Shown here in pieces: positions 1 to 40,152 of a stretch of DNA of 64,000 nucleotides. The notes beneath the pieces are model-generated. The model saw nothing but the letters and a program-made list of their open reading frames with translations, made no database searches and was not told the origin of the DNA. The stretch comes from Rickettsiales bacterium. GTDB lineage: Bacteria; Pseudomonadota; Alphaproteobacteria; Rs-D84; CACZYB01. Position numbers and translations under genes: made by a program. The stretch lies in NCBI GenBank assembly GCA_031263095.1, contig JAISGI010000015.1, positions 12,328 through 76,327 of the forward strand. The letters run 5' to 3'. The stretch's first letter is position 1; each line of letters opens with the position of its first letter.

Positions 1-284
1 TCGCAAAGCGCAAGGATGTGCTTGGCCTTTACATTGAAAAACCCGGTTCTTTTTATGATTTCAGACAGCCGCCGCTCACCCAAGGCAAGCATTTTTTGCG
101 GCGTGTCCGCATCCTTGAACAGCTCGGCCGTGGCGATGTTGACACCCTTGTCGGTCGATTGGGCGGACAGCAGCACCGCTATCGCGAAAGTGAACGGGGT
201 CGTGTATCTAAGCTCGGACTTCTTGTCCCCGATTTGGTCTTCGAAGAAGTGGAGTATCTTTTCAAGGTTTTTCGGCGTTATCAT
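1..284 (-). CDS. nth: endonuclease III (Nth), N-terminal part; gene runs off the left edge of the window
   Basis: Reverse-strand translation from the ATG at 284 gives MITPKNLEKILHFFEDQIGDKKSELRYTTPFTFAIAVLLSAQSTDKGVNIATAELF..., the typical HhH-GPD endonuclease III N-terminus. It lies downstream of dnaG on the same strand. No stop codon occurs before the window edge. Confidence 0.6.
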   Translation of the reverse strand, partial: MITPKNLEKILHFFEDQIGDKKSELRYTTPFTFAIAVLLSAQSTDKGVNIATAELFKDADTPQKMLALGERRLSEIIKRTGFFNVKAKHILALC

Positions 285-329
285 TTCATCTCCTGTTTTA
301 TTATTCCACAGTCTTTCATAAATGCAACA

Positions 330-2078
330 TCAAAACATATCCCCTATGATTTCATCCGTTTTGGCAAGCTCCTCCTGCAAAGCGGAAATCCGCGCGCGCA
401 GCCGCTCCACCTCCAGGTCGAGCGAGGCGGTAAGGAGCTTGGTGTTTAGCTCGCGTATCTCGGCCGCAAGGTTCTCGCGCGAAAGCCGGGCCGCTTTCTC
501 GCGCATTATGCCCTCTGCCGTATCGGGCGAAGCGGCAAGCGAGTCCATCTCGAATTTGAGCGCGCTTCGCGCGTCGAAACCCTTGGCGGACAAAAAGGCG
601 CAGATTGTATCGCGCGTATGCGGCTGGGTCGAGGTTTCCGCCGCTACCGCCTCGAATATCCGCTTGAACTTCGCGTTCGTAAGATTGACGCGGAGCCCGC
701 CCTCGACAAGCTTGGCAAACTTGTTCGGGTACGATATGGCAAAGGCGAGAATCATCCGCTCGTTCCCGTTCTCGGGGTTGGCTTTCGGTGCGACTGGTAT
801 TTTCGCGGTCGGGATTTTCGAGAACGAGGCTTTCTCCCGCCGGTTGAACTCCTCGGTATAGAAAGTGCGCACGGACTCGTCCGCAATGCGCCCGATTTCC
901 CGCGTGATGTCCGCTTTTAGGCCAGCGCGCTGCTCCGGCGTCCTGACCTGCCTCCCCTCGGTGAAATAGCTCCAAAGCACATCCGACAGCGGAAGCGATT
1001 TGTCAAGCAGCGCCTTGAACTTCTCCGCGCCGAACGCGTTCAGGAATTCGTCCGGGTCTTTCGCGTCCTTGATAAGGCAGAAGCGCAAGGATTTCCCTGG
1101 TTTCAAGATTGGCAAAGCTCGCAATGCCGCCCTCGCCGAGGCATTCCGCCCCGCGGTGTCGTTGTCGAAACACAATATCGGCTCGGCCGAGATTTTCCAG
1201 ATTATTTCAATCTGCTTCTCGGTCATGGCCGTGCCAAGCGGCGCGATAGCGGTGGTGAATCCGAACTTGTGCAAGGAGATTGTGTCCATATACCCCTCGC
1301 ACGCGATTATTGGGTGCTCCGTATCCGTGTTCGCGCGCGAAAGCGCAAGGGCGTATAGGTTCGCGCCCTTGACGAACATCATGTTCTCGGGCGAGTTGAG
1401 GTACTTGGGTTCGCTGTTGTCGAGCACGCGTCCGCCGAATGCTATTATGCGTCCGCGCGGATCGGTAATTGGGAACATCACACGCGAACGGAAATAGTCG
1501 TACGCCGAGCCGTCTTTGTCGCTTTTCCTGGCAAGCCCTGCGGCCATGATTTGCTTGGGCTCTATGCCCTTGTTGGTAAGGAAACGGACAAGCTTGTTCC
1601 CCGGCGGCGCAAAGCCAAGCTTGAAATTGGCGATAATCTCGTCCGTGAGTCCCCGGCGGCGGAGATATGCCAAGCCCTCCGCTCCCTCCGGCTCGTAAAG
1701 CTCGCGCGCGAAATATTCCGCCGCCATCAAAAGTATGTCATAGAGGTTCTTGGCCTCCTTGGCCTTGGCAGCCTCGGCGGGCGTGAATTTCGGCACCTCG
1801 AGCCCGGCCTCCATGGCAAGCTTCTCCACCGCCTCGGGAAAGCTCATGTGCTGGTGCTGCATGACGAAATCTATGACCCCGCCGTGCGCGCCGCAGCCGA
1901 AGCAGTGGAAGAATCCCTTGTCCTCGGATACCGAGAAAGAGGGCGTCTTCTCCTTGTGGAAAGGACAGCAGCCCCAGTATTGGCGGCCCTTTGCGCTCAA
2001 GGGCACGTATTTGCCTATGACCTCGGATATCGAAAGCCTGGATTTAAGAAGTTCTATGAATGTTCTGTCAAGCGCCAT
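330..2078 (-). CDS. dnaG: DNA primase
   Basis: 582-aa ORF with a CHC2 zinc finger (CCPFHKEKTPSFSV...FHCFGCGAHG), a Toprim region and a C-terminal helicase-binding region. Confidence 0.9.
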   Translation of the reverse strand: MALDRTFIELLKSRLSISEVIGKYVPLSAKGRQYWGCCPFHKEKTPSFSVSEDKGFFHCFGCGAHGGVIDFVMQHQHMSFPEAVEKLAMEAGLEVPKFTPAEAAKAKEAKNLYDILLMAAEYFARELYEPEGAEGLAYLRRRGLTDEIIANFKLGFAPPGNKLVRFLTNKGIEPKQIMAAGLARKSDKDGSAYDYFRSRVMFPITDPRGRIIAFGGRVLDNSEPKYLNSPENMMFVKGANLYALALSRANTDTEHPIIACEGYMDTISLHKFGFTTAIAPLGTAMTEKQIEIIWKISAEPILCFDNDTAGRNASARAALRALPILKPGKSLRFCLIKDAKDPDEFLNAFGAEKFKALLDKSLPLSDVLWSYFTEGRQVRTPEQRAGLKADITREIGRIADESVRTFYTEEFNRREKASFSKIPTAKIPVAPKANPENGNERMILAFAISYPNKFAKLVEGGLRVNLTNAKFKRIFEAVAAETSTQPHTRDTICAFLSAKGFDARSALKFEMDSLAASPDTAEGIMREKAARLSRENLAAEIRELNTKLLTASLDLEVERLRARISALQEELAKTDEIIGDMF

Positions 2079-2173
2079 GGTTCAAGCCTACCACTCTCAC
2101 GTCTTATATGTCAACTATCCGCTTTACAAATACACAGATTCAGTGTAAAATATTCTGGATACAGGAGAGTATT

Positions 2174-5014
2174 ATGAGAAAAGTACTTCTTTTCCTTGCC
2201 GCTTTTGTCATGGCGAATGGCGCCTTTGCGGCAAGGACTATAAACGGGATAACTTATTCCGAGGGACCCTACAGCTGCGCCGTCTGCGTGGCGGGCACCT
2301 ATTGCCCGCAGGGTTCGACAAGCTCCGTACCCTGCGTGCCCGGCGACTATTGCCCCGAGAATTCCGCGGCGAAGATAACCTGCCCGGGCGGGTCTTTCTG
2401 CACGACGCCGGCGACCAAGGACGACTGCGCCCTTGGCGAGTATTGCCCTGCCGGCACGACCGGAGCGACAATTCAGGATAGATTATGCGACGCAGGTTCG
2501 TTCTGCTCCACCACCACTTTGATAGCCAACTGCCTGCCCGGCGAATACTGCCCCGCCGGCACTTTCGCACCCGATAGGACAAGCAGGCTTTGTCCCGCAG
2601 GCTCGTGGTGCACGTCCGATACGCTTACCAAGAAGCCCTGCGGCTCTGGCGAGTATTGCCAGGCGGGTACTACCGAATCCGACCCGGAGAAAAGGAAATG
2701 TCCAGCGGGCAATTACTGTACCGATACTACCTCGCCTCCTTTGCCCTGCGACCTTGGCGAATACTGTCCGCTTGGAACTAGCGAGCAGAATTCCGCAAAC
2801 CGCCAGTGTCCCGCCGGCTGGTACTGCGCCGACACGACTGACAAGGTTGGGTGCGTATCGACCATGTATTGCCCGGAAGGCAGCACGACCCCGGATAGTT
2901 GCGCCGCGGGAAGCTATTGCTCCTCGGACGCCAAGACCCAGACGCCATGCGCAAGCGGCCAGTACTGCCCGGCCGGAAGCGTATTTACCCAGCCTTGCCC
3001 TGCTGGTTCCTACTGCGAGACCCCGGCGACGATAGCGCTCTGCCCGGCTGGCAAATATTGCGACGAGGGTTCGACCTTGCTCACGGACAGCACGCATGTC
3101 CACCCGTGCCCGGCCGGATATATCTGCGATGCCGGCACGACGCCCGCGACCAAGACGGCCACTTCCTGCTACGCCGGATTCGTATGCCCCGAGGGTACTT
3201 CGCCCGCGACTGCCAACAATACCAAGTGTCCCGCGGGCTACGTCTGCGGCTACGGCACCACTCCGGCCACGGCTCAGGATACGCAGTGTCCGGCTGGTTT
3301 GGTCTGCGGCGAGGGCGCGACCCCGAACGATGTTTCAAGCGTAAGCGGCAACGTCGGCTATTGCCCTGCCGGAAAAGTGTGCGACGTTGGCACTACCCCG
3401 GCGACCGCGAACAATACATGCTGCCCCGCCGGTTTTGCCTGCGGCGAGGGTACTTCGCCCGCGGACGTCGCAAACCCGAGCGGTTCGGACGGCCGTGTCG
3501 AGGTCTGCTCGTCCTGTCAGGCCTGCTCGGTGATAGTGCCCGATTCGACATCCTGCCCCGCCGGCCACTTCTGCTTCAACGGCATAAGGGGAACCTGCCA
3601 GGCGGGCGAATACTGCCCTGAGGGTGGAACCTACACCTCGGTCGAACGTAGCGACAGGCTCTGCGCCGGGGGCGATGTTTGCTCCGCCGACACCAAGACC
3701 ATAACCGATACATGCGACTCGGGCGAGTTCTGCCCTCCCGGCACCTACTATGGCCAAACCGTGGTATCCGCGGTAAGTGGACGGCAGGAATGCCCCGCAG
3801 GGTACTATTGCTCCACCGACACCAAGACTATAACCGAGTGCGAGACCGAGGGTTGGTACTGCTCCGCCGGCTCTACCACGTGGCAGTATTGCCCTGCTGG
3901 CTCGTACTGCTCCACTTCTAAGGTCATACAAGCATGCGTCGCTGGACAGTACTGTCCCGAGGCCTCGAGCGCCGCGGCAACCTGCCAGGCCGGTTATAAA
4001 TGCTCCAAAGAGGCGGACACAAGGTCCAAGTGTGACGAGGGCTGGCTCTGCTTAGCCGGAACATATGACACTCAGCCGATAGTCTCTGGCTCTTCCGGTG
4101 AGCAGCGTTGCCCCGCGGGACACGTGTGCGCCGCTGACGCGTCTTCCATTACGAAATGCACCGCAGGCGAGTATTGCAACGAGGGTACCTACGTCGGACA
4201 GCCTGTTGTCCCGGGCTCTACCGGACGCCAGACATGCCCGGCAGGCTATGAGTGTACTGACGACGCGGCCGCTATCGAGCCGTGCGAATCTGGACAGCTT
4301 TGTTTGGCGGGTTCAAACGTGGGCAAAATGGGCAGCTCCGGCACCGACATAGGCCGCCACCAATGTCCTGCGGGATACGAATGTTCGGCTGCCGCGTCAA
4401 GCTATACCGAGTGCGCCTCCGGCGAATACTGCCCTGCTGGCTCCTACGTGGGTCAGGCTGTGGTAGAGGCTTCCGCCGGCAGGCAAAGCTGTCCCGCCGG
4501 ACGCTACTGCCTGAATGCGGCAAGCATTTCCCAGTGCTCGCCCGGTTCGTACTGCCCGATAGGCATGACTACGGCGAATCCCGACTGTACGGCCGGTTCA
4601 TGGTGCACCACTGACGCCAAGACTATTACGGAATGTAGTGCTGGCGACTACTGCCCGGCGCGCACGTTCGCAGATAACGCCGCTGGAGTAAGTTGCCCGG
4701 TCGGATACGTATGTTCCAACGTGACGACCAAGAACAACTGCGGCGCTGGATATATCTGCCCTAATACCGGCATGCAGACTGCGATACCGTGCGCGCCTGG
4801 CTCGTACTCTGACGCGACGAACTCGACGGCGCTTGCCTGCATCGCTTGCCCAGCCAATGCCTGGAGCGACCCGGCCTCAAGCGCGCTTGAGGCCTGCGGC
4901 ACCTGCGACGCCGGCAAGTTCATCGAGGTCTGCCCGACCGGCGACTGCGACGCCGAGAAAAAGGCTCGCCCGAACTGCTCGTATAATTCGAACAATACAT
5001 ATACCTGCTCGTAA
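2174..5014 (+). CDS. large secreted cysteine-rich repeat protein (~40 tandem C-P-A-G-x-Y-C units; GCC2/GCC3- or ephrin-receptor-like pattern)
   Basis: An AGGAG Shine-Dalgarno site precedes the ATG at 2174. A signal peptide (MRKVLLFLAAFVMANGAFA) is followed by about 940 aa made of ~20–24-aa repeats of the form C(P/A)AG(S/T/Y)(Y/W/F)C...T(T/S)...C. A hairpin terminator follows at 5018-5048. The listed ORF start at 2060 reads through the upstream intergenic region and is unlikely to be the true start. Confidence 0.75.
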   Translation: MRKVLLFLAAFVMANGAFAARTINGITYSEGPYSCAVCVAGTYCPQGSTSSVPCVPGDYCPENSAAKITCPGGSFCTTPATKDDCALGEYCPAGTTGATIQDRLCDAGSFCSTTTLIANCLPGEYCPAGTFAPDRTSRLCPAGSWCTSDTLTKKPCGSGEYCQAGTTESDPEKRKCPAGNYCTDTTSPPLPCDLGEYCPLGTSEQNSANRQCPAGWYCADTTDKVGCVSTMYCPEGSTTPDSCAAGSYCSSDAKTQTPCASGQYCPAGSVFTQPCPAGSYCETPATIALCPAGKYCDEGSTLLTDSTHVHPCPAGYICDAGTTPATKTATSCYAGFVCPEGTSPATANNTKCPAGYVCGYGTTPATAQDTQCPAGLVCGEGATPNDVSSVSGNVGYCPAGKVCDVGTTPATANNTCCPAGFACGEGTSPADVANPSGSDGRVEVCSSCQACSVIVPDSTSCPAGHFCFNGIRGTCQAGEYCPEGGTYTSVERSDRLCAGGDVCSADTKTITDTCDSGEFCPPGTYYGQTVVSAVSGRQECPAGYYCSTDTKTITECETEGWYCSAGSTTWQYCPAGSYCSTSKVIQACVAGQYCPEASSAAATCQAGYKCSKEADTRSKCDEGWLCLAGTYDTQPIVSGSSGEQRCPAGHVCAADASSITKCTAGEYCNEGTYVGQPVVPGSTGRQTCPAGYECTDDAAAIEPCESGQLCLAGSNVGKMGSSGTDIGRHQCPAGYECSAAASSYTECASGEYCPAGSYVGQAVVEASAGRQSCPAGRYCLNAASISQCSPGSYCPIGMTTANPDCTAGSWCTTDAKTITECSAGDYCPARTFADNAAGVSCPVGYVCSNVTTKNNCGAGYICPNTGMQTAIPCAPGSYSDATNSTALACIACPANAWSDPASSALEACGTCDAGKFIEVCPTGDCDAEKKARPNCSYNSNNTYTCS

Positions 5015-5017
5015 GGA

Positions 5018-5048
5018 AAAAGGAGGCTCGCAAGCCTCCTTTTTTATA
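5018..5048. terminator. Rho-independent bidirectional terminator hairpin
   Basis: aaaaaGGAGGCTCGCAAGCCTCCttttttat: a GC-rich stem with A- and T-tracts on both sides, between convergent genes. Confidence 0.55.
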
Positions 5049-5281
5049 AACAAATAATTTTATTGTTATTCCACAGGCGAACTTATTTCCTTTCTACAGC
5101 TTTGGGCGCTTCTATCTTGACCGATTCGGTCTTGATTCGTATCGGCGCCTGCCAAAGCGAAAGGAAGACAAGCACGCTTGCGCTTATTGCGATTGTTATC
5201 CGCCGCCGCATCATCGAAACGTGCCGCCTAGGCGCGCTGCTCCCGCCAAGCCCGATTCCCATGCCTATCATAAAAACCTCC

Positions 5282-6052
5282 TCACTCCTCGACCAGCCTA
5301 TTGAATTCCCTCTCGACCGCCGCATGCGCCGCAGCCGCCATTTCCTTGCGATTCGCATATTTCGCCAGGTCGAGCGGCTCGCCTATCGAGATCTCGGCCG
5401 ACACGGGAAATTTGTCGCGTATTGCGCCGAAATGCTGGGCAAGAGTCTGCTCCGGCAGATACCAGGAATAAAGCTGCCTCTCGGCAAGCGTCATCCGCCT
5501 CCGCCCGCGCCGCGTATATGCAATCGCCATGGGCTGTACGATTATATCCGCCGCGCCGCCGCCCTCGAATATGGAAAACATCGAGCTTTTGAAGGACAAA
5601 ATGCTTGCCCCGTCGCCGCTGGTTCCCTCGGGAAAGATAAGCAAGGGTATGCGCCGGCCGTCAAACGCCTGCTCGATGACGCTCACTTCGCCCGCCGCCG
5701 CCATCCGCCTGCGCGAGATGAAGACCGTGTTCCCAAGCCGCGTGATAACGCCGAACAGCGGCCAGGTGGCCACATCCTCTTTCGCAACAAAGTTTATTTT
5801 GAGAAGCCGCCCTATGGCAAGGATGTCAAGATACGACATGTGGTTGCACAGCAGCAGGACTTTCTTGCCCCCGACAATCCGTCCATGCCTGACCCGCGAA
5901 TGCAGGCCAAGGAAAAGGCAATAGACTTTGAAGTAAAAACGATGGAACGACGGCGCCAGCCACCGCAGCCCCGGCACATACCTCACCGCCCACATTATCG
6001 GCATGGCGACAATCGCCCATATGAACATGAAGAAAAGCTTTATGTAAATCAT
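5282..6052 (-). CDS. plsC: 1-acyl-sn-glycerol-3-phosphate acyltransferase
   Basis: Contains the HxxxxD acyltransferase motif (LCNHMSYLDI) and the FPEGTSGDG motif, with an N-terminal transmembrane segment. Confidence 0.8.
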   Translation of the reverse strand: MIYIKLFFMFIWAIVAMPIMWAVRYVPGLRWLAPSFHRFYFKVYCLFLGLHSRVRHGRIVGGKKVLLLCNHMSYLDILAIGRLLKINFVAKEDVATWPLFGVITRLGNTVFISRRRMAAAGEVSVIEQAFDGRRIPLLIFPEGTSGDGASILSFKSSMFSIFEGGGAADIIVQPMAIAYTRRGRRRMTLAERQLYSWYLPEQTLAQHFGAIRDKFPVSAEISIGEPLDLAKYANRKEMAAAAHAAVEREFNRLVEE

Positions 6053-6074
6053 ACTTTCCCTTTTTATTATTATA

Positions 6075-6128
6075 ACCTGTGGGAATGCCGGAAATAACTT
6101 GAAAAGTTATTCTGGCTTTCCACAGGCC
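6075..6128. repeat. REP-like palindromic element (CCTGTGG...CCACAGG family)
   Basis: acCTGTGGgaatgccggaaataacttgaaaagttattctggctttCCACAGG: a ~22-bp imperfect inverted repeat around a GAAAA loop. It is preceded by the T-rich stretch ttttattattataa. Confidence 0.6.
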
Positions 6129-6146
6129 TTAAACTCCTCCAGCTTC

Positions 6147-6569
6147 CTATTTAAGCTCCACCTTGTCGAAGTTTATTGGGTTCAAGACAAAAGGCGAGAA
6201 TCCCGAATCCGCTGTAACACCTGCGATGACCGCGCGTATGAACGGGAACAGATGCGAGGGGATGGTCTTGGTAAGCAGACGCTTCAAGGCCTCCTCTTCG
6301 GTTATATGCACCGCGGCCATGGAACCGTAGGCAAGCTCGATTACGAACAGCGGCTTGTCGGCAAGCGTGTTGGTAATCTTCAGGTTCATGACGACCTCGT
6401 AAAGCTCATCTCCCATTTTGGCTGTCTTGACCTCAAGGTTCATGTCGATTTTTGGCTGGCCCTCAAGCTTCTCGAAGAATATGCGCGGACTGGACGGCGC
6501 CTCGAACGAAAGGTCTTTGATATACTGGTTCAGGATTTCGAATTCCGGCTTCGGCTGGACGTTTTCCAT
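6147..6569 (-). CDS. secB: protein-export chaperone SecB
   Basis: 140 aa with typical SecB sequence (EFEILNQYIKDLSFE...LFVIELAYGSMAAV...FPFIRAVIAGVTADSGFSPFVLNPINF). Confidence 0.85.
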   Translation of the reverse strand: MENVQPKPEFEILNQYIKDLSFEAPSSPRIFFEKLEGQPKIDMNLEVKTAKMGDELYEVVMNLKITNTLADKPLFVIELAYGSMAAVHITEEEALKRLLTKTIPSHLFPFIRAVIAGVTADSGFSPFVLNPINFDKVELK

Positions 6570-6651
6570 TTATTGCTCCTTGTTTGGCTTGCTTTTCTCT
6601 CATTATAGGATATAATGGCCGCTACGCAACAAGTTTTTTAAGGAGTGGATT

Positions 6652-7296
6652 ATGAGTGCTATAGACGTATGCATGCTTGGGTTCTTCGGGTTCGTCTGCT
6701 ATTGCGCTTGGCGCACGTTCAAGGGGGACAAACCCGAGCCGCTCGCCGCGGCGGGCAAAACCGCGGCCGAACCCATAAAGCCGCTTATAAGCCTTGCGCC
6801 CGCAAAGCCGGTTGAGAAAGCGGAGCCGGTAAAGCAGGAGGACAGCCTTGAGATGAAAGTCCTCTCTCTTGCCTCCCGCGACAAGGGGTTCGAGCCGCAG
6901 GCGTTCATGGAGTCCGCCCGCCAGGCGTTCGATATTATACTGAAGTCGTTCGAGGAGGGGGATGTCGAGGCAATCCGCCCGCTGGTCTCGGCCAAGGTTG
7001 CCAAATCGCTTGAAAAGCAGATGGCCGCGCTTGCCGCCAAGAAACACAAACTCTCGACCGAAATCGTAAGGTATAAAAAGGTCTATATGGAGGACATCGC
7101 CATTTCGGACAAGTCCGCGCGCATAGTTGTGCATATAATAACCGAGCAGACAGCGCTTCTTACCGACGCCAAGGGCAAGATTATAGAGGGGGACGAGAAC
7201 AGCATACGCGAGGTCAAGGACGCCTGGGCGTTCGAACGCAACTTCTCCTCCCGCGGCGGCTGGGTGCTGGTGGAAATGCTAAAGGCGGATAAGTAG
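6652..7296 (+). CDS. Tim44-like domain membrane protein
   Basis: N-terminal transmembrane segment, a low-complexity linker and a C-terminal Tim44/NTF2-like region (ARQAFDIILKSFEEGDVEAIRPLVSAKVAKSLEKQ...WVLVEM). Confidence 0.6.
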   Translation: MSAIDVCMLGFFGFVCYCAWRTFKGDKPEPLAAAGKTAAEPIKPLISLAPAKPVEKAEPVKQEDSLEMKVLSLASRDKGFEPQAFMESARQAFDIILKSFEEGDVEAIRPLVSAKVAKSLEKQMAALAAKKHKLSTEIVRYKKVYMEDIAISDKSARIVVHIITEQTALLTDAKGKIIEGDENSIREVKDAWAFERNFSSRGGWVLVEMLKADK

Positions 7297-7302
7297 CCGA
7301 CG

Positions 7303-7554
7303 CTATTTGCTGTCTTTTGTGGATTTATAGAGCGCCATGACGCCGATGATAAGGTTTATTATCACGGATAAAGCTGCCGCCACTATGAAAATAAATCCCA
7401 TAAGCTCGCTCGCATTCTTGAACAAGGCCGCGCCTATAAGCCCAAGCGGCATCGCAATCAGCCAGCCGAACAGTACTTTCCAAGTGAATATATTACGGTT
7501 TTTCAGCTTGTTGTTTATGCCCCTAAGCAAAGCTTCAATCCTATCTTCGTTCAT
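7303..7554 (-). CDS. small hypothetical membrane protein (83 aa, two TM segments)
   Basis: ORF with two hydrophobic helices; no motif recognised. Confidence 0.35.
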   Translation of the reverse strand: MNEDRIEALLRGINNKLKNRNIFTWKVLFGWLIAMPLGLIGAALFKNASELMGFIFIVAAALSVIINLIIGVMALYKSTKDSK

Positions 7555-7684
7555 ATCTAGCCTCCTTTTTTATCCGTAATAATATCAAATTTTATTATTA
7601 TTGTCAATCCTCGCTCTCCACAGTCTATCAAATTCTTTCTTGATTCTTGAGGTTCCATAATATATCCTCCCTTGAGAGGAAAAC

Positions 7685-9643
7685 ATGGCTCAAAGTTCAT
7701 ACAGCGCGAAAGACATCGAGGTTTTGGAGGGGCTCGAGCCCGTCCGCATGCGCCCCGGCATGTACATCGGCGGCGTGGACGCGAACGCTCTCCACCATCT
7801 GGCAAGCGAGATTCTTGATAACGCTATGGACGAGGTCGGCGCCGGCTTCGCGCGCGAAATTTCTATGGAAATCTTGGAGGACGGCCGCGTCCGCATATCC
7901 GACGACGGCCGCGGCATTCCCGTGGACGACCATCCCAAGTTTCCGGGCAAATCCGCGCTCGAGGTGATACTCACAACGCTCCACTCCGGCGGCAAGTTCA
8001 GCGACAAGGTGTACCAGACCTCCGGCGGCCTGCACGGCGTCGGCTCCTCGGTCGTGAACGCGCTTTCTGAGGAAATGACGGTCGAGGTCTCCCGCGGCGG
8101 CAACATCTACCGCCAGAAATATTCCCGCGGCCTGCCGACTTCGAAACTCGAAATCGTCGGCAAATCCAAGAAGACCGGCACCACGGTCGAGTTCAAGCCC
8201 GACGCCACGATTTTTGGCGAGGGAAACGTGTTCAAACCGCTGCGGCTCTTTCGCATGGCGCGTTCCAAGGCGTTCCTTTTCAAGGGCGTGGTAATACACT
8301 GGAAGTCGCAGATTCCCGTGGATGGCGTGCCGGCTGAGGCTACGCTCAATTTTCCAAACGGCATCGCCGACTTCTTGGCCGAAACAATAGAAACGCGTCC
8401 TAAGGTGATAGACGAGATTTTCTATACCGAAACCCCGCTTGCCGAGGACAAGGGCAGGGTGGAGGTAGCTCTGTCGTGGATAGATACCACGCGCGAGGAG
8501 GGCGCGACCGGCGGGTTCATAAGCTCTTACGCCAATACGATTCCGACACCCGACGGCGGCACGCACGAGGCCGGGTTCAAGTCGGCCATCACGAAAAGCC
8601 TCAAATCTTTCGCCGACATGGTTGGCAATAAGAAATTCGCCCAGGTCATATCCGAGGATATTTTCGACGATGCCGCGGTGGTGCTCTCGCTCTTTTACAA
8701 GAACCCGCAGTTCCAGGGTCAGACCAAGGAGAAGTTCAGCTCTGCCGAGGCGACCCGCCTAATCGACACGGCGCTCAAGAACTATTTCGACTACTTTTTG
8801 ACCCAAAACCCGGCTCAATCTAATCTTTTGCTTGGTTATATAATCGAAAAGGCCGAGGCAAGGCTTAAACTTAAAAAGCTCAAGGAAACGATTCGCAAGT
8901 CGCCTACGAAAAAACTCCGCCTGCCGGGAAAATTGGCCGACTGCTCCAACCGCGACCGCACGGGAACCGAGCTTTTTTTGGTCGAGGGCGACTCCGCGGG
9001 TGGCAGCGCGAAACAGGCTCGCAGCCGCGCGACTCAGGCGATTCTCCCGCTGCGGGGAAAAATTCTCAACGTCGCCTCCGCCTCAAGCGACAAGCTCTCC
9101 GCGAACAAGGAGATTGGCGATATTACCGAGGCCTTGGGCGCGGGCGCCGGACGCGATTATAACGAGGACAAGCTCCGCTACGACAAGGTAATAATCATGA
9201 CCGACGCCGACGTCGACGGCGCGCATATAGCAAGCCTTTTGATGACGTTCTTCTTCGAGCAGATGCCAGGGCTCATCGCCGACGGCCACCTGTATCTGGC
9301 GCTTCCGCCGCTGTTCAAGGTCTCCGACGGCCGCACGTCGTACTACGCCATGGACGAGCAGGAAAAGGACGCTATAATCGCCAGGCATTTCAAAGGAAAA
9401 AAGGTCGAAATCTCCCGCTTCAAGGGCCTTGGCGAAATGATGCCGGGACAGCTCAAGGAAACGACAATGGATCCGAAAACGCGCCAGCTGCTGCGCGTGG
9501 AAATTCCTCCGCATACCGAGGAGGGGCGCGAGGATTTCGCCGCCACGCGCGAGCTTGTCGCCAACCTCATGGGCAAGAATGCCGAGTTCCGCTTTCGCTT
9601 CATACAGGAGGGGGCGAAGTTCGGGGTCGAGCTGGATATATAA
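7685..9643 (+). CDS. parE: type IIA topoisomerase B subunit, short form (topoisomerase IV subunit B ParE-like)
   Basis: 652 aa with the GHKL ATPase region (LEGLEPVRMRPGMYIGG...HHLASEILDNAMDE), a Toprim domain ([34 protein letters not shown]) and the DADVDG motif. It lacks the ~170-aa insertion present in the 818-aa GyrB at 13450. Confidence 0.8.
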   Translation: MAQSSYSAKDIEVLEGLEPVRMRPGMYIGGVDANALHHLASEILDNAMDEVGAGFAREISMEILEDGRVRISDDGRGIPVDDHPKFPGKSALEVILTTLHSGGKFSDKVYQTSGGLHGVGSSVVNALSEEMTVEVSRGGNIYRQKYSRGLPTSKLEIVGKSKKTGTTVEFKPDATIFGEGNVFKPLRLFRMARSKAFLFKGVVIHWKSQIPVDGVPAEATLNFPNGIADFLAETIETRPKVIDEIFYTETPLAEDKGRVEVALSWIDTTREEGATGGFISSYANTIPTPDGGTHEAGFKSAITKSLKSFADMVGNKKFAQVISEDIFDDAAVVLSLFYKNPQFQGQTKEKFSSAEATRLIDTALKNYFDYFLTQNPAQSNLLLGYIIEKAEARLKLKKLKETIRKSPTKKLRLPGKLADCSNRDRTGTELFLVEGDSAGGSAKQARSRATQAILPLRGKILNVASASSDKLSANKEIGDITEALGAGAGRDYNEDKLRYDKVIIMTDADVDGAHIASLLMTFFFEQMPGLIADGHLYLALPPLFKVSDGRTSYYAMDEQEKDAIIARHFKGKKVEISRFKGLGEMMPGQLKETTMDPKTRQLLRVEIPPHTEEGREDFAATRELVANLMGKNAEFRFRFIQEGAKFGVELDI

Positions 9644-9666
9644 CAAGCAAACAAAAGGAGCCTATA

Positions 9667-10110
9667 ATGCCCAAAACCGATGTCGGCGCCGGATGCGCAG
9701 TAGTGGTCTTCAACGAGAAGAAACAGTTTCTCATGCTCCACCGCCGCAAGGATGTCAAGCACGCACCCGACACATGGTGCCTTCCCGGCGGCTGGATAGA
9801 GAAGTTCGAGGAGCTGGAAATCGCCGCCGCGCGCGAAACGCTCGAGGAAACCGGAGTCCTTGTCCGCAATGTCAAAGTAATGGGCGTCCAGAACAATATA
9901 AGGCGCAACGAAGACCACCATACGATTACGGTGATTATGGCGGCGGTTATGAGGGATGGCAGTCCCGCACCCACGAACGCCGAACCGGACAAGGCCGACG
10001 CCGTGCGCTGGATAGATGATTGGAATAATATGCCCGCCCCGACATTCTCCGCCTACTCCGCCGCCGTCTCCCGCGAAACGCTCGAAAAATATCTGTCTGA
10101 AAATCTATAA
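9667..10110 (+). CDS. NUDIX hydrolase
   Basis: Carries a Nudix box (GGWIEKFEELEIAAARETLEETGV). Confidence 0.75.
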   Translation: MPKTDVGAGCAVVVFNEKKQFLMLHRRKDVKHAPDTWCLPGGWIEKFEELEIAAARETLEETGVLVRNVKVMGVQNNIRRNEDHHTITVIMAAVMRDGSPAPTNAEPDKADAVRWIDDWNNMPAPTFSAYSAAVSRETLEKYLSENL

Positions 10111-17494: not shown

Positions 17495-18526
17495 CTACTG
17501 CCTTTTAGCACCAAACACACCATATACAGATAACGGCTGATTCGTCGCCGTGTTGTCAAGCCAGAAATTTCCCGCGGTTTCCGATATTATTCCACCCTCA
17601 CCGAAGAAAGAGTGGTTATAGCACTGCCCGCTGCTTGGGTTCCCGCACGTGGCGTTCTCTGCTTGGGACATGTAGTACTTGCTGTTGTTGCCCAGGATGC
17701 GTATTGTGCCGTCGGTCTTATAGGTTATGTTGTACCCCCACGTGTCCTTGAAATTCAGTTGGAGCTGCTCGTTTCCGTTCTGCTCGATGGTGAATATGGA
17801 TTGCCCGGTAAAGTCAGCCCAATCGTCCGTCCCGTCCTTGCCCACGACCGCATAGGCCTTGCCGAAGAAGTTTATTTTTCCAAGGTGCTGGTCTCTGGTC
17901 GCACTCGTGTCGAAAATCTGGCTCTCCGGCCGCGGCACGGTTATGAAGAGGTCATACTCCGGATGCGGCCCGGCGATAAGCTTGCCGTTCAGGAACACCT
18001 GCGACACGCTCTTCCAGTATCCGAAATCCGCATACTGCATGCCGAGCGACCCGCCGCCAAGCACGATCGAAGCGTCGATTCTCTGATTCATGGCGGTTAT
18101 CTTGCTTCTGTCGTATTGGATGCCTAATTGGTTCAGTTGGGAGATAAGCAACTCTGTGCTGCGCGCCTCGTATTTGTCTCCACTGGACGACGTGTATCCG
18201 AACAGCGGTAGGTTCATGGTCTTGTCCGCCTGATACGAGCCCGAGTTGTTCATATAGAAGTCGTTCACGGAGAATGCAACCTCGTCTTTAAGGTCGCTCG
18301 ACTGGTGCCATATATAGTTGATTTTGCCGTCTTCGTTGAAAAAATACTTTACCTGCCCGCCAGACGAGGGATTGACCGCATTATAGTTTATGCCGGTTAT
18401 GTCGTATGTTACAGGCTCGGCGGCAAGGGTGACAATTTTCTCGGCCGGAATATGCACCTCCTTGGGCGAAGACGTCCCGCACGCGCCAAGACAAAGCATG
18501 ATTGCTATAAGGGAAGTGTGTTTCAT
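17495..18526 (-). CDS. surface lipoprotein, TbpB/fHbp-like C-terminus (putative Slam-type SLP)
   Basis: A GAGGAG Shine-Dalgarno site precedes the ATG at 18526. It has a lipoprotein signal (MKHTSLIAIMLCLGAC-G) and a beta-rich body, and ends in ...YGVFGAKRQ. Confidence 0.55.
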   Translation of the reverse strand: MKHTSLIAIMLCLGACGTSSPKEVHIPAEKIVTLAAEPVTYDITGINYNAVNPSSGGQVKYFFNEDGKINYIWHQSSDLKDEVAFSVNDFYMNNSGSYQADKTMNLPLFGYTSSSGDKYEARSTELLISQLNQLGIQYDRSKITAMNQRIDASIVLGGGSLGMQYADFGYWKSVSQVFLNGKLIAGPHPEYDLFITVPRPESQIFDTSATRDQHLGKINFFGKAYAVVGKDGTDDWADFTGQSIFTIEQNGNEQLQLNFKDTWGYNITYKTDGTIRILGNNSKYYMSQAENATCGNPSSGQCYNHSFFGEGGIISETAGNFWLDNTATNQPLSVYGVFGAKRQ

Positions 18527-18602
18527 AATGCTCCTCTCTTTGCCAATATGATACCACAAAATCCCCTTTTCGTCAACAATATATGATTTCTATATAAAAG
18601 CG

Positions 18603-38459: not shown

Positions 38460-39020
38460 TTAATTCAGCTTGTACAAATACACCATGCCGGAAGTCCTGT
38501 CCATATCGGAAAGTGTGAGGCCGGGTGTGGCCATCCTTCCGCCGTTGGGGTTATTTGCGTACATTTGTGCTCCGTAAACCAAAACATTCTCTGCAGATCC
38601 CATATAAGGCGATTTGAAGAATACAAGGTCGGTGCAAGCATTGTTCAAACACCCTCCGGCATTCAACAGCGAATATATACGCACAGAGGCAGGCTGGTTC
38701 AATACCACTATGTTGGACGAGTAACTATTCCCGGCTACGTAGGCGTCTATGCGATAGACTCCAGGTGCGTAAAGGTTATCCGCTGAAGCGCTTATGCCAT
38801 TGCCGGGCGAAGAAGTTTGGGCGACGACCTGCCACCTCGATTTTTCCGGCGTTCCTATTGCTGCTGTCGCTTCTTCAAGCGTCAATACAGCATTGTACCT
38901 GCAATCTTGGGTGGCGCCGGATTGGCAGGCACCGGGCACGGCGCACGCCGAACAGGAATAATAGTTCGCCGCACCGGCTGGCATTGCCATAAGCATCACC
39001 ATTGCTAGTAGTTTTTTCAT
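38460..39020 (-). CDS. family copy I with no homopolymer tract: constitutive-type member with a standard signal peptide
   Basis: MKKLLAMVMLMAMPAGA-ANYYSCSACAVPGACQSGATQDCRYNAVLTLEEATAAIGTPEKSRWQVV...PGVYRIDAY...PGLTLSDMDRTSGMVYLYKLN. Shine-Dalgarno site AAGGAGG-ACTGA-ATG. It has all the family motifs but a different, uninterrupted leader. Confidence 0.85.
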   Translation of the reverse strand: MKKLLAMVMLMAMPAGAANYYSCSACAVPGACQSGATQDCRYNAVLTLEEATAAIGTPEKSRWQVVAQTSSPGNGISASADNLYAPGVYRIDAYVAGNSYSSNIVVLNQPASVRIYSLLNAGGCLNNACTDLVFFKSPYMGSAENVLVYGAQMYANNPNGGRMATPGLTLSDMDRTSGMVYLYKLN

Positions 39021-39210: not shown

Positions 39211-39299
39211 GGAAGGTTGGCAGAGCGGTAATGCAGCGGATTGCTAATCCGTGACGGGGTTAAATCCGTCCAGAGGTTCGAGTCCTCTACCTTCCGCCA
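39211..39299 (+). tRNA. tRNA-Ser (anticodon GCU), type II with a long variable arm
   Basis: Acceptor GGAAGGT/ACCTTCC, anticodon loop TTGCTAA, variable arm GACGGggttaaatCCGTC, T-loop GGTTCGAGTCC, and discriminator G followed by an encoded CCA. Confidence 0.85.
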
Positions 39300-39348
39300 T
39301 TCTATTGTAGTTCCCCGGCTTGACCAAGGAATCCAGTCAGCCATAATC

Positions 39349-40014: not shown

Positions 40015-40152
40015 ATCCGTATTGGATTTATCAGGAAACGTGGGGGGGGGTAAATCGCTGATTTTGCACAGATTGTCCGTATTCTATGGCGCAAGCCTCT
40101 GTTTGGGACGAAAATGCATATAAGATTGACGAGAGCCTTGCGGATTTCCATT

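What the first reader, a model, noticed from the sequence alone, without database searches (positions are those of the whole stretch)
2174..5014. 947-aa secreted protein of ~40 CPAG-x-YC cysteine repeats; its first repeat resembles the family N-terminus and its last residues resemble the family mature start
The repeat unit C-P-A-G-(S/T/Y)-(Y/W)-C ... 20-24 aa is reminiscent of GCC2/GCC3, TNFR or ephrin-receptor Cys-rich modules and of protist variant surface antigens.

The first repeat after the signal peptide (YSCAVCVAGTYCPQGST) aligns with the family's mature N-terminus (YTCTACAVPGVCQAGAS). The protein ends ...CSYNSNNTYTCS-stop, which echoes the family's ...SANNSQSANYYTCTAC.

This suggests that the small family and the giant repeat protein share a module. 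It may mark a historical recombination junction.
Basis: partly seen in the sequence, partly recalled or inferred. Interest (0 to 1): 0.6.

Follow-up and report, generated by a model that had tools for sequence, protein, structure and literature searches.

The report
Bacterial giant cysteine-ladder rod protein
An uncultured gut-type alphaproteobacterium encodes a secreted 946-residue protein built from about 45 tiny disulfide-bonded hairpins of a kind otherwise seen mostly in eukaryotic surface proteins, and short versions of the same building block form the stalk of relatives of a neighbouring family of switchable small secreted proteins.

Summary
Window 2174-5014 (+) is an intact gene with a promoter-like site, a Shine-Dalgarno sequence, a Sec signal peptide and a terminator hairpin. 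The product is 946 aa (947 codons with the stop) and has 102 Cys. It holds 44 C-x5-C units, against 10.9±3.0 in shuffles.

No Pfam or NCBIfam model reaches its threshold. It still matches about 1000 proteins, mostly eukaryotic Ephrin_rec_like/GCC2_GCC3 proteins, at E down to 1e-79. Its AlphaFold model matches best the cysteine-rich rod of the Chlamydomonas mastigoneme protein MST1, then ELAPOR1 and TNFR modules.

- the family profile scores negative bits on the giant;
- there is no nucleotide similarity;
- GC3 differs (0.70 against 0.53-0.56).

A profile search of the family nevertheless found relatives, such as P0135 and P0193, whose family "head" domain sits behind a stalk of genuine Ephrin_rec_like repeats. 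P0168 has a comparable cysteine-rich stalk but no Pfam match on record. These stalks align with the giant at E 4e-8 (P0135) and 2e-5 (P0193). So the family N-terminus is best read as a collapsed stalk and the giant as a stalk-only extreme. The shared-module idea is supported. The recombination-junction idea is not.

The likely function is a rigid, disulfide-laddered extracellular or surface rod. That function is inferred, not shown.

The parts
2123..2151 (+). Promoter-like site TTTACA-17-TAAAAT, 22 nt upstream of the start codon
   Evidence: 10 of 12 consensus matches. This is a consensus match only. It lies downstream of the alternative ATG at 2060, which favours 2174 as the start.
2163..2167 (+). 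Shine-Dalgarno core AGGAG, 6 nt before the ATG
   Evidence: Read directly from the sequence.
2174..5014 (+). Coding sequence of the 946-aa cysteine-repeat protein, stop codon included
   Evidence: An identical protein lies in the same dnaG/plsC/secB neighbourhood on an independent Logan contig.
2174..2230 (+). Signal peptide, residues 1-19 (MRKVLLFLAAFVMANGAFA), with an A-x-A cleavage motif and no lipobox
   Evidence: Read from the sequence. AF2 gives helix 2-12. No signal-peptide predictor was available.
2270..2314 (+). N-terminal cap unit, residues 33-47 (YSCAVCVAGTYCPQG). It holds the only C-x2-C-x5-C in the repeat array.
   Evidence: It aligns with the first stalk unit of P0135, P0193, P0176 and P0177, and with the first Cys of the window's small family.
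2285..3478 (+). First repeat block, residues 38-435: units 1-22. Units 17-22 are a sub-block of 20-28-aa units of the form CPAGxVC-GxGTTPATAxxT.
   Evidence: AF2 pLDDT is mostly 70-90, with strings of short beta-hairpins.
3479..3553 (+). Irregular hinge, residues 436-460, including CSSCQAC
   Evidence: pLDDT is below 50 over residues 436-459. The regular unit pattern is broken here.
3554..4789 (+). Second repeat block, residues 461-872: units 24-45, mostly A/B alternation with long 26-27-aa B units
4790..4975 (+). C-terminal CxxC-containing module, residues 873-934 (CAPGSYSDATNSTALACIACPANAWSDP...CGTCDAGKF...). It looks TNFR/ELAPOR1/Ephrin_rec_like-like.
   Evidence: Only sub-threshold Pfam hits: NCD3G 18.5 bits, TNFR_ELAPOR1_6th 16.8 and TNFR_c6 17.3, all below their gathering scores. 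No homologue was found for the last 106 aa alone.
4976..5011 (+).
   Evidence: Its C-x9-C spacing equals the giant's own A-type inter-unit spacing. AF2 gives a hairpin with strands 935-937 and 943-945.
5016..5045 (+). Terminator hairpin (13 bp, loop CGCA), flanked by A and U runs, lying between the giant gene and the convergent plsC
   Evidence: dG -18.8 kcal/mol, z -4.8, and 0 of 200 shuffles fold as well.
38460..39020 (-). The one member of the small family with an ordinary start and signal peptide. Its mature N-terminus NYYSCSACAVPGACQSGATQDC is read here as a collapsed stalk unit.
   Evidence: P0168, found next to rho/serS/fabD in a related genome, has a cysteine-repeat stalk about 110 aa long in the same place.

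Best explanation
**What the protein is.** The gene encodes a Sec-exported mature protein of 927 aa that is acidic and has no hydrophobic anchor. It consists almost entirely of about 45 short cysteine-framed hairpin units (C-x2-G-x-[YWF]-C plus a loop). Two unit types mostly alternate. The array has an N-terminal CxxC cap, one flexible hinge, and a C-terminal TNFR-like CxxC module.

**Shown here.**
- The repeat architecture.
- Homology at superfamily level to Ephrin_rec_like/GCC2_GCC3-type proteins.
- A predicted chain of beta-hairpins whose best solved match is the 26-nm, 26-disulfide cysteine-rich rod of the mastigoneme protein MST1.
- Native codon usage.
- No phase-variation tract.

**Inferred.**
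- After export, the periplasmic disulfide machinery oxidises the 102 cysteines into a ladder of about 51 disulfides.
- This gives two stiff, protease-resistant rods, tens of nanometres long in total.
- The protein works outside the cytoplasm, most likely on or beyond the cell surface, as a structural spacer or adhesive fibre. The organism is an anaerobic, probably gut- or host-associated, uncultured alphaproteobacterium.

**Place in the lineage.** The protein belongs to a lineage-specific toolkit. Short arrays of the same unit type form the N-terminal stalk of small secreted proteins, which end in a conserved beta-sandwich 'head'. In this genome those stalks have shrunk to a single unit and the genes are switched by G9 tracts. 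The giant is the opposite extreme: stalk only, no head, and with no slippage tract of its own.
For: **Architecture and signals:**

**Homology**
- 1037 hits, the best at 287 bits, and the named ones among the 120 listed are eukaryotic, many carrying PF07699.
- Composition-matched shuffles of the hits give none.

**Fold**
- AF2 mean pLDDT is 67.7, with 525 residues at or above 70 and hairpin strings.
- Foldseek against the PDB gives MST1 entries 8wa2/9b4h/8tx1 at E 5.7e-14 to 6.5e-11. ELAPOR1 follows at 0.03-0.1, then TNFR-family receptors and EphA4 at 0.1-0.7.
[quoted passage not shown] They are also described as a disulfide ladder with about 11 Å spacing (PMC10602792).

**A genuine bacterial gene**
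- It is flanked by dnaG, plsC, secB, tim44 and parE in two assemblies.
- GC3 is 0.70, against 0.69-0.77 for housekeeping genes.

**Diderm, anaerobic context:** LptD, SurA, NrdD and a radical-SAM protein that is probably the NrdD activase.

**Bacterial precedents:** P0078 lies in an alphaproteobacterial context with flagellar genes, an N6_N4_Mtase+RAMA methyltransferase and OmpA. P0043 is another.

**Toolkit link**
- The family profile finds P0135 (head E 1.8e-19; PF07699 at 28.7 bits, above the gathering score of 23.1), and also P0193, P0168, P0176, P0177, P0149 and P0138.
- P0135 and P0193 align with the giant at E 4e-8 and 2e-5. tblastn of P0135 against the whole window hits only the giant.
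- L093, which carries P0168, is from a related genome: Rho 80% and SerS 72% identical.

**No homopolymer tract of 7 or more in 2000-5300**.
Against: - No experiment, and no predicted final location. The window shows no type II secretion system, usher, TpsB, beta-barrel or sorting signal that would carry a folded rod across the outer membrane. A periplasmic location is therefore not excluded.
- pTM is 0.30 and several segments have pLDDT below 50, so overall shape and length are guesses by analogy with MST1.
- No orthologue was found anywhere except an identical copy. Conservation and selection therefore could not be assessed.
- No Pfam or NCBIfam model reaches threshold.
- The link to the small family rests on bridging proteins, not on significant direct similarity.
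Confidence: 0.55

Rival explanations
1. Eukaryote-derived mimic. The gene was captured from a eukaryotic host or prey. It acts as a decoy or ligand mimic of host extracellular cysteine-rich receptors (TNFR/ephrin-receptor-like), rather than as a structural rod of a bacterial toolkit.
For: Every named hit among the 120 listed is eukaryotic. Of the unnamed metagenome hits inspected, one sits in a clearly eukaryotic context (P0115) and one in a eukaryote- or giant-virus-like context (P0047). Fold matches include the TNFR family and EphA4.
Against: - The best identity to any eukaryotic protein is 26-39%, with no close donor.
- GC3 equals that of the housekeeping genes.
- The gene has bacterial SD, signal peptide and terminator.
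- The same unit type recurs in many small secreted proteins of related alphaproteobacteria. An ancient, domesticated module fits better than a recent capture.
- The array lacks the regular C-x2-C subunits of the eukaryotic mega-repeat: 4 against about 15-25 per protein.
Confidence: 0.15
2. The giant gene is, or borders, a historical recombination junction with the small family. Its two ends would derive from family gene 5' ends.
For: Y-[ST]-C occurs only twice in the giant, at residue 33 and at residue 943, which are its two ends. The pattern Y-[ST]-C-x2-C-x5-C-x2-G-[AS]-[ST] is shared with the family and is absent from 120 homologues.
Against: - The family HMM scores -4.0 bits (whole-family model) and -7.0 bits (N-terminus model) at the first repeat. 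The best match anywhere is 5.3 bits, against a shuffle maximum of 5.8, and unrelated homologues reach 11.5.
- blastn with word size 7 finds nothing below E 0.36, and nothing at the 3' end.
- GC3 is 0.70 against 0.53-0.56.
- There is a stop plus terminator, and no head remnant in any frame of 4701-5500.
- The C-terminal loop matches the giant's own A-type loops.
Confidence: 0.05
3. A periplasmic thiol or metal buffer. The 102 cysteines would serve redox buffering or metal sequestration (metallothionein-like) in the periplasm, not a disulfide ladder.
For: The protein is 10.8% Cys. It is exported, and no onward secretion signal is recognisable. The organism is an anaerobe, where periplasmic oxidation may be limited (NrdD).
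Against: - The cysteines sit in a strict structural frame, with conserved Gly, Pro and aromatic residues. That frame is typical of disulfide-bonded hairpins and is shared with extracellular eukaryotic proteins.
- The fold matches are to disulfide ladders.
- There are only four CxxC motifs, and no His- or Cys-cluster metal motifs.
Confidence: 0.07
4. A constant shaft for exchangeable tips. The giant rod would be the invariant shaft on which the phase-variable small head proteins dock. Their collapsed stalk unit would stack onto, or form a disulfide with, a terminal unit of the rod.
For: - Both carry the same unit type.
- 13 of 16 family members have an odd number of Cys, so a free thiol is possible.
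- The giant has no slippage tract, whereas 15 family genes sit behind G9 tracts that leave them out of frame with their ATG.
Against: - The giant has an even Cys count.
- The family genes are scattered among housekeeping genes, not linked to the giant.
- Relatives with longer stalks suggest each head protein carries its own stalk.
- No interaction evidence of any kind exists.
Confidence: 0.07

Closest known systems
Eukaryotic Ephrin_rec_like / GCC2_GCC3 (Pfam PF07699) mega-repeat proteins, e.g. predicted 'MEGF6-like' or 'Notch4-like' vertebrate proteins and protist surface proteins; the SVEP1/SCUBE/CRMP class is named from memory
   Same: - The CPxGxYC hairpin unit with conserved Gly and an aromatic residue.
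- About 10% Cys.
- Hundreds of residues of tandem units.
- phmmer E down to 1.7e-79, with 26-39% identity over up to 95% of the query.
   Different: - The window protein is bacterial.
- It is almost purely C-x5-C (44 such units, with C-x2-C at only four places). The eukaryotic proteins typically interleave 15-25 C-x2-C units.
- It does not reach the PF07699 gathering score. The family is not even reported at E ≤ 10 on segments.
Cysteine-rich domain of the Chlamydomonas mastigoneme protein MST1 (PDB 8wa2, 9b4h, 8tx1)
   Same: It is the best solved-structure match (Foldseek E 5.7e-14). It is a long extracellular rod made of a ladder of disulfide-bonded hairpins: 26 nm and 26 disulfides (PMC11015965), with about 11 Å spacing (PMC10602792).
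   Different: - There is no sequence-level match, either with phmmer or with a di-repeat profile against PDB sequences.
- MST1 also has nine Ig-like domains and a glycosylated polyproline helix, and it polymerises.
- TM-scores are low because the overall rod paths differ.
TNFR-family cysteine-rich domains and ELAPOR1 TNFR-like domains
   Same: - Small two-disulfide modules stacked into an elongated ectodomain.
- Weak fold matches at E 0.03-0.7.
- Sub-threshold Pfam hits on residues 856-946.
   Different: Scores are below the gathering thresholds. TNFRs have 1-6 modules and a membrane anchor. Here there are about 45 units and no anchor.
Stalk-head secreted proteins of related uncultured alphaproteobacteria (P0135, P0193, P0168, P0176, P0177, P0149, P0138), including the window's own small family
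   Same: - The same type of cysteine unit directly after the signal peptide, beginning with a CxxC cap.
- BLASTP of the stalks of P0135 and P0193 against the giant gives E 4e-8 and 2e-5.
- Where context was checked (P0135, P0193, P0168), the genes sit singly among housekeeping genes.
   Different: - Those proteins have 1-6 units followed by a head of about 130 aa ending in ...IYKL[ND]. The giant has about 45 units and no head.
- The family genes in this window carry G9 tracts and have lower GC3. The giant has neither feature.
P0078, a 1316-aa protein of a GC-40% alphaproteobacterium (locus L083)
   Same: It is a bacterial, signal-peptide-bearing protein. Its C-terminal third is a run of 16-aa CPAGxYC-PAGSxxxxx units, 38% identical to the giant over 378 aa.
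   Different: It has a long, different cysteine-rich N-terminal region. Its units are uniform, without A/B alternation. The genome is different, and it is not an orthologue.
Giardia VSPs and other protist variant surface antigens
   Same: Cysteine-rich, secreted, repetitive.
   Different: As recalled from general knowledge, VSPs are built on frequent CXXC motifs and end in a membrane anchor with a conserved tail. Here there are four CxxC motifs, no hydrophobic segment and no VSP profile hit. The gene is single-copy and has no slippage tract.

Membership tests
Pfam PF07699 Ephrin_rec_like (GCC2_GCC3) | The profile HMM scores at or above its gathering threshold of 23.1 bits | tested here: not met
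   The family is not reported for the whole protein at E ≤ 1, nor for five segments at E ≤ 10.
Pfam PF07699 Ephrin_rec_like (GCC2_GCC3) | Significant sequence similarity to proteins that do carry the domain | tested here: met
   One search gives E 1.7e-79 to 1e-38 against many proteins with precomputed PF07699. Shuffled controls give no hit. P0135, which passes PF07699 at 28.7 bits, aligns with the giant at E 4e-8.
Pfam PF07699 Ephrin_rec_like (GCC2_GCC3) | Units containing C-x2-C-P-x-G-x-Y interleaved along the array | tested here: inconclusive
   C-x2-C occurs only at residues 35/38, 445/448/451, 889/892 and 908/911. The homologues have 15-25 each.
Growth-factor-receptor / TNFR-like cysteine-rich fold (disulfide-laddered hairpin rod) | Fold similarity to solved members | tested here: met
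   Foldseek against the PDB gives MST1 at E 5.7e-14, ELAPOR1 at 0.03, and TNFR family and EphA4 at 0.1-0.7. The model is of moderate confidence (pLDDT 67.7).
Growth-factor-receptor / TNFR-like cysteine-rich fold (disulfide-laddered hairpin rod) | All cysteines paired in a regular ladder of disulfides | not testable with these tools
   Model coordinates are not returned. The Cys count is even (102), which is compatible with full pairing.
Pfam PF00020 TNFR_c6 | The profile HMM scores at or above 29.4 bits | tested here: not met
   10.4 bits on the whole protein, and 17.3 bits on residues 856-946.
Protist variant surface proteins (Giardia VSP type) | Dense CXXC motifs, a C-terminal membrane anchor, a multigene variant family | tested here: not met
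   There are four CxxC motifs. The most hydrophobic 19-aa window of the mature protein has 6 V/L/I/F/M/W residues. There is no Pfam hit. The gene is single in the window.
Myxococcus-type cysteine-rich repeat and other NCBIfam bacterial repeat families | An NCBIfam model hit | tested here: not met
   Zero families at E ≤ 1.
The window's small secreted 'head' family (NYYTC...IYKLN) | The C-terminal head domain (C..N..L[ST]..EA..CIG..W.LV, PGIYR.D, TPGI...IYKL) | tested here: not met
   The family HMM scores -73.5 bits on the full giant sequence, and every domain scores 0 or less. No match is found in six frames of 4701-5500.
The window's small secreted 'head' family (NYYTC...IYKLN) | An N-terminal cysteine unit of the same class directly after the signal peptide | tested here: inconclusive
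   Direct scores are not significant. The link is supported through bridging relatives with longer stalks.
Homopolymer-tract phase-variable genes | A G/C tract of about 7 or more in the 5' coding region or promoter | tested here: not met
   There is no G/C run of 7 or more, and no A/T run of 9 or more, between 2000 and 5300. All 16 G9/C9 tracts lie elsewhere.
Lipoproteins, autotransporters and other anchored surface proteins | A lipobox Cys at +1, a C-terminal beta-barrel, or a sorting signal | tested here: not met
   The cleavage region is AFA|ART, with no Cys. There are no Pfam barrel or sorting domains, and no hydrophobic segment.

The most novel reading that the evidence does not exclude
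The giant rod and the 16 small head genes, 15 of them behind G9 tracts, are parts of one modular surface structure. A constant shaft tens of nanometres long, built from a disulfide ladder, would receive its tip from whichever head protein is switched on. The head's single collapsed stalk unit would stack onto, or form a disulfide with, a terminal unit of the shaft. Most heads have an odd Cys count, so a free thiol is available. This would be a new way for a bacterium to build an antigenically variable fibre from eukaryote-type cysteine modules.
Probability: 0.07. Interest if true: 0.8.

Novelty: new variant of a known kind. Interest (0 to 1): 0.45.

Why it matters
Long arrays of Ephrin_rec_like/TNFR-type cysteine hairpins are a hallmark of eukaryotic extracellular proteins. 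Here such an array is a native, well-adapted gene of an uncultured anaerobic alphaproteobacterium, with about 51 potential disulfides in one exported chain.

Current domain libraries do not recognise it, so proteins like it are invisible to routine annotation.

The follow-up also shows that this unit is a reusable stalk module in the lineage. Relatives combine short arrays of it, or coiled coils, with a novel beta-sandwich head. In this genome the head genes are numerous, and nearly all sit behind G9 tracts that leave them out of frame.

This gives a concrete, testable picture of how a poorly known gut-type bacterium may build and vary its surface. It also gives a bacterial system for studying the folding of extreme disulfide ladders.

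The giant protein alone is a moderately interesting member of a known structural class, not a new kind of system.

Tried and rejected
**Profile and sequence searches that found nothing**
- Pfam and NCBIfam on the whole protein: nothing at threshold.
- Pfam on five segments: only sub-threshold hits from cysteine-rich families (NCD3G, TNFR_ELAPOR1_6th, TNFR_c6, Dickkopf_N, Lustrin_cystein, FOLN). I treat these as noise or as superfamily hints.
- PDB by sequence, with the protein and with a 15-member di-repeat profile: nothing.
- PHROGs for the giant and the head proteins: nothing, so no phage tail-fibre link.
- The last 106 aa as a query for true orthologues: no hit.

**Searches for relatives and context**
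- Exact-sequence look-ups of the giant: not indexed, although an identical gene sits on Logan contig SRR14710921_15665.
- Genome scan with DnaG, to find synteny in relatives. The best hit is only 47% identical (a ruminal alphaproteobacterial MAG) and sits at a contig end, so it was uninformative.
- Metagenome scan with the giant: only 26-40% repeat-type hits.
- Literature searches for the run accession, for Ephrin_rec_like in symbionts, and for termite Rickettsiales MAGs: nothing usable.

**Internal structure of the gene**
- Tandem Repeats Finder: no array. The DNA copies are 60-85% identical, so the repeats are old and not a recombination hotspot.

- The first 121-sequence alignment was too large for structure prediction, and two alignment calls failed internally.

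**Ideas rejected**
- Contamination or a chimeric eukaryotic insert. The gene has bacterial signals, matching GC3, and appears in two assemblies.
- A head remnant downstream of the stop.

**An error of mine**
- In one search I trimmed the wrong end of the minus-strand secB reference, so that look-up says nothing.

Full report
**1. What is at the coordinates**

The longest ORF over the finding runs 2060-5014. The biologically sensible start is the ATG at 2174:
- AGGAG lies 6 nt upstream of it.
- A promoter-like TTTACA-17-TAAAAT sits at 2123-2151, downstream of the 2060 ATG.
- The product then begins MRKVLLFLAAFVMANGAFA|ARTING, a textbook Sec signal with an A-x-A cleavage motif and no lipobox.

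The product is 946 aa. Directly after the stop, 5016-5045 folds into a 13-bp hairpin flanked by A and U runs (dG -18.8 kcal/mol, z -4.8). The gene therefore ends cleanly.

An identical protein sits between dnaG and plsC-secB-tim44-parE on an independently assembled Logan contig. One window protein is annotated at NCBI as coming from a MAG labelled 'Rickettsiales bacterium'.

The gene's third-position GC (0.70) equals that of the surrounding housekeeping genes (0.69-0.77). Its higher overall GC comes from second positions, that is, from Ala/Gly/Pro/Cys/Thr content. It is a native bacterial gene, not contamination.

**2. The repeats are real and far beyond chance**

- The protein has 102 Cys (10.8%).
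- C-x5-C occurs 44 times, against 10.9±3.0 (maximum 22) in 2000 shuffles.
- C-x2-G-x2-C occurs 42 times, against 1.2±1.1.
- Counting one C-x6-C variant, there are about 45 units.

Two unit types mostly alternate:
- A = CPAGxYC followed by an S/T/D-rich loop of 8-10 residues.
- B = CxxGEYC-PxGT followed by 9-19 residues.

The array has these landmarks:
- Residues 312-444 form a sub-block of 20-28-aa units (CPAGxVC-GxGTTPATAxxT).
- Residues 436-460 break the pattern (CSSCQAC).
- Residues 873-934 switch to C-x2-C-containing modules.
- The chain ends in the loop C935-SYNSNNTYT-C945-S.

At DNA level the copies are only 60-85% identical, and Tandem Repeats Finder sees no array. The repeats are old.

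The mature protein is acidic (86 D+E against 44 K+R). It has no hydrophobic segment that could anchor it.

**3. What kind of protein it is**

No curated model recognises it:
- Pfam gives only TNFR_c6 and FOLN at E≈0.9 on the whole protein.
- NCBIfam gives nothing.
- On segments, only sub-threshold hits appear. NCD3G, TNFR_ELAPOR1_6th and TNFR_c6 hit the last 91 residues at E 2e-3 to 7e-3, all below their gathering scores.
- Ephrin_rec_like is never reported.

Even so, a search of 5.8 billion proteins returns 1037 hits. The best are at 287-150 bits and 26-39% identity over up to 95% of the query. Every named hit among the 120 listed is eukaryotic, from fish, reptiles, echinoderms, cnidarians, stramenopiles, apicomplexans and diplonemids. 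Many carry PF07699.

Residue-shuffled versions of the same proteins give no hit at all. The similarity lies in the ordered unit, not in composition.

Most of those proteins interleave C-x5-C with 15-25 C-x2-C units. The window protein is almost purely C-x5-C.

I inspected the context of five unnamed metagenome hits:
- P0078 lies in an alphaproteobacterial neighbourhood, with flagellar genes, an N6_N4_Mtase+RAMA methyltransferase, OmpA, and GC 40%.
- P0043 is a lipoprotein-like protein with TSP1 domains.
- P0047 sits beside HMG-box and SNF2 genes.
- P0115 sits beside BEACH, G-alpha and PH genes.
- P0063 has neighbours with no Pfam hits, so its origin is unresolved.

Bacterial examples exist but are a minority.

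**4. Structure**

AlphaFold2 was run with a 44-sequence alignment:
- Mean pLDDT is 67.7, with 525 of 946 residues at or above 70. pTM is 0.30.
- The model is a chain of short beta-hairpins.
- Low-confidence breaks fall at 322-346, 436-459, 485-512 and 909-929.

Foldseek against the PDB ranks the matches as follows:
- The Chlamydomonas mastigoneme protein MST1 first (8wa2, 9b4h, 8tx1; E 5.7e-14 to 6.5e-11).
- Then ELAPOR1 (E 0.03-0.1).
- Then TNFR-family ectodomains and EphA4 (E 0.1-0.7).

TM-scores are low, as expected when two long flexible rods are superposed.

[quoted passage not shown] It is also described as a ladder of disulfides about 11 Å apart that gives mechanical robustness (PMC10602792).

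By analogy, the window protein would form two stiff rods joined at the 436-460 hinge, tens of nanometres long in total. This is inference. I could not obtain coordinates, so the disulfide map and the length are not determined. There is no sequence-level match to any PDB chain, even with a di-repeat profile.

**5. The claimed link to 'the family': direct tests**

The family is real. There are 16 genes in the window, each with a mature part of about 150-170 aa. They start NYYTCTACAVPGACQAGAT and end ...IYKL[ND].

Every direct test of relatedness to the giant fails:
- A whole-family HMM gives only negative domain scores on the giant.
- Its best score anywhere in the giant is 5.3 bits, on CALGEYCPAGTT at 85-96. 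Shuffles of the giant reach 5.8, and unrelated eukaryotic homologues reach 11.5.
- blastn with 7-nt words finds nothing below E 0.36, and nothing at the 3' end.
- Family genes have GC3 of 0.53-0.56, against 0.70 for the giant.
- The C-x2-C-x5-C spacing the two share is the commonest spacing of the whole class, with 1657 instances in 120 homologues. The Y-[ST] prefix is rare, at 3 of those 1657.

**6. The claimed link: indirect evidence that rescues part of it**

I searched a profile of the 16 paralogues against 1.84 billion representatives. It found 77 relatives, 31 of them at E ≤ 1e-10.

Many are start-truncated small proteins. Several others keep the family's C-terminal 'head' but carry something else in front of it. 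The head motifs are C..N..L[ST]..EA..CIG..W.LV, PGIYR.D, TPGI and ...IYKL.

Relatives with cysteine-repeat stalks:
- P0135 (head E 1.8e-19) has about 100 residues of cysteine repeats there. They pass PF07699 at 28.7 bits, above the gathering score of 23.1.
- P0193, P0168, P0176, P0177, P0149, P0138 and P0183 are similar.

Relatives with coiled-coil stalks: P0156, P0160, P0179 and P0181.

How the cysteine stalks relate to the giant:
- They align with it at BLASTP E 4e-8 (42% identity over 71 aa) for P0135, and E 2e-5 for P0193.
- P0135's first unit aligns with the giant's first unit, C35AVCVAGTYC.
- tblastn of P0135 against the whole 64-kb window hits only the giant gene.

Genomic context of these relatives:
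- P0168 lies beside rho, serS and fabD in a related genome, with Rho 80% and SerS 72% identical to the window's. The window's only normally initiated family gene (38460-39020) lies in the same neighbourhood.
- P0193 comes from NCBI assembly GCA_031268815.1. Two such genes sit there among housekeeping genes.

In a joint alignment, the first Cys after the signal peptide lines up in the giant, the family and all stalked relatives. The family's ...CAVPGACQAGATxDC lines up with the last stalk unit of the relatives.

My reading is that the family's N-terminus is a collapsed stalk, made of the cap plus the last unit. The giant is the opposite extreme of the same module: about 45 units and no head. 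'Shared module' is therefore supported.

'Recombination junction' is not supported:
- There is no shared DNA.
- There is no head remnant in any frame after the stop.
- The terminal C-x9-C loop is like the giant's own A-type loops, for example C737-SAAASSYTE-C747.

An AlphaFold model of a family member has pLDDT 74 and pTM 0.72. It is a beta-sandwich with one helix and a poorly defined N-terminal cysteine segment, and it has no significant PDB match. Apart from that segment, the two proteins are structurally unrelated.

**7. How it most likely works**

*Shown:*
- an export signal;
- a hairpin-ladder architecture;
- membership of the growth-factor-receptor/TNFR/Ephrin_rec_like structural class at superfamily level;
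- native codon usage;
- no homopolymer tract, so no sign of the slippage switch seen at the family genes;
- a diderm, anaerobic host genome, with LptD, SurA, NrdD and a radical-SAM protein that is probably the NrdD activase.

*Inferred:*
- oxidative folding in the periplasm into about 51 disulfides;
- a rigid, protease-resistant rod;
- a role outside the cell as a spacer or adhesive fibre, by analogy with MST1 and with the stalk role of the same units in the head proteins.

*Unknown:*
- how it crosses the outer membrane;
- how it is held in place;
- what it binds.

I put 0.55 on this explanation. The rivals are:
- an ancient or recent eukaryote-derived mimic or decoy (0.15);
- a periplasmic thiol or metal buffer (0.07);
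- a constant shaft that carries the variable heads (0.07);
- the recombination-junction idea (0.05).

**8. Novelty and score**

The structural class is known. Eukaryote-like repeat proteins in host-associated bacteria are also a known theme.

Three things are new here:
- a bacterial, nearly pure C-x5-C array of about 45 units that curated models miss;
- no orthologue in any collection searched;
- the demonstration that the unit is a stalk module shared with a lineage-specific family of head proteins.

I rate it a new variant of a known kind, with interest 0.45. The more striking biology in this window is the 16-gene family, 15 of whose members sit behind G9 tracts. That is noted separately.

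Noticed in passing
G9/C9 tracts at window 10246, 12626, 21033, 22327, 23323, 25910, 30024, 32228, 41406, 45841, 51339, 54530, 56558, 57562 and 60443: Fifteen of the 16 small-family genes share a conserved 5' end: SD AAAGGAGA, then ATG, then about 7 codons, then GTAC-G9-CAAA. In every case G9 puts the ATG out of frame with the long ORF. In one sequence class G8 would restore the frame, and in the other G10 would. This looks like slipped-strand phase variation with every copy one step from ON. Transcriptional slippage or assembly consensus effects are not excluded.
   Followed up: partly
window 38460-39020 (-): This is the only family member with an ordinary ATG start and signal peptide (MKKLLAMVMLMAMPAGA|ANYYSCSAC) and no G tract. 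It is also the only member the word-indexed search of 5.8 billion proteins returned: MDR1008959.1, 'Rickettsiales bacterium'.
   Followed up: partly
window 40042-40050 (+): A sixteenth G9 tract is not followed by a family ORF. It lies between an unannotated ORF (39241-39996, no Pfam hit) and the minus-strand ORF at 40153-40857, which was not scanned.
   Followed up: no
all 16 family genes; alignment A4: The family has conserved ends and a hypervariable middle of about 60 residues. Thirteen of the 16 mature proteins have an odd number of cysteines. Their GC3 (0.53-0.56) is well below that of housekeeping genes. The pattern suits a variable surface-exposed protein.
   Followed up: partly
proteins P0121-P0197; loci L091, L092, L093: The family 'head' domain is not an orphan. 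77 relatives exist. Some have N-terminal stalks of cysteine repeats and some have long coiled coils (P0156, P0160, P0179, P0181). Weak multi-stretch matches also fall on K319L-like PKD repeat proteins, hinting that part of the head is PKD/Ig-like. The head has no Pfam, PHROG or PDB match.
   Followed up: partly
L093 9925-9960; also L093 15503 and L092 3203: In a related genome the family homologue P0168 is preceded by TTGACT-TTCCCCCCCCCGTGG-TAATGT. That is a C9 tract inside a promoter-like spacer of 15 nt. Homopolymer switching may therefore act on the promoter there, rather than on the reading frame. Further G9/C9 tracts occur in the same loci.
   Followed up: no
L001/L094 (Logan contig SRR14710921_15665), corresponding to about window 1-10100: The independent assembly of the same organism breaks just before the first family gene at about 10240. 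This fits the repeated, tract-bearing 5' ends causing assembly breaks.
   Followed up: no
window 17495-18559 (-), 18778-19890 (+), 20033-20773 (+), 23971-24675 (-), 51880-52611 (-): Several other predicted secreted or lipoprotein-like ORFs have no Pfam match. One has a GTGSGTGTGTGS low-complexity linker after a lipobox-like LAACG.
   Followed up: no
L083 8001-12521: P0078 is a 1316-aa bacterial protein. It combines a different CxxC-rich N-terminal region with a C-terminal run of 16-aa CPAGxYC units. It sits next to a faint ankyrin-repeat gene in a GC-40% alphaproteobacterial contig. This is another eukaryote-like surface protein worth its own look.
   Followed up: no
precomputed annotations (P0037, P0054, P0055, P0057, P0079): Some homologues carry Pfam PF27023, which is absent from the local Pfam copy. 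It may be a newer model for exactly this CPAGxYC unit. I could not check whether the window protein would pass it.
   Followed up: no
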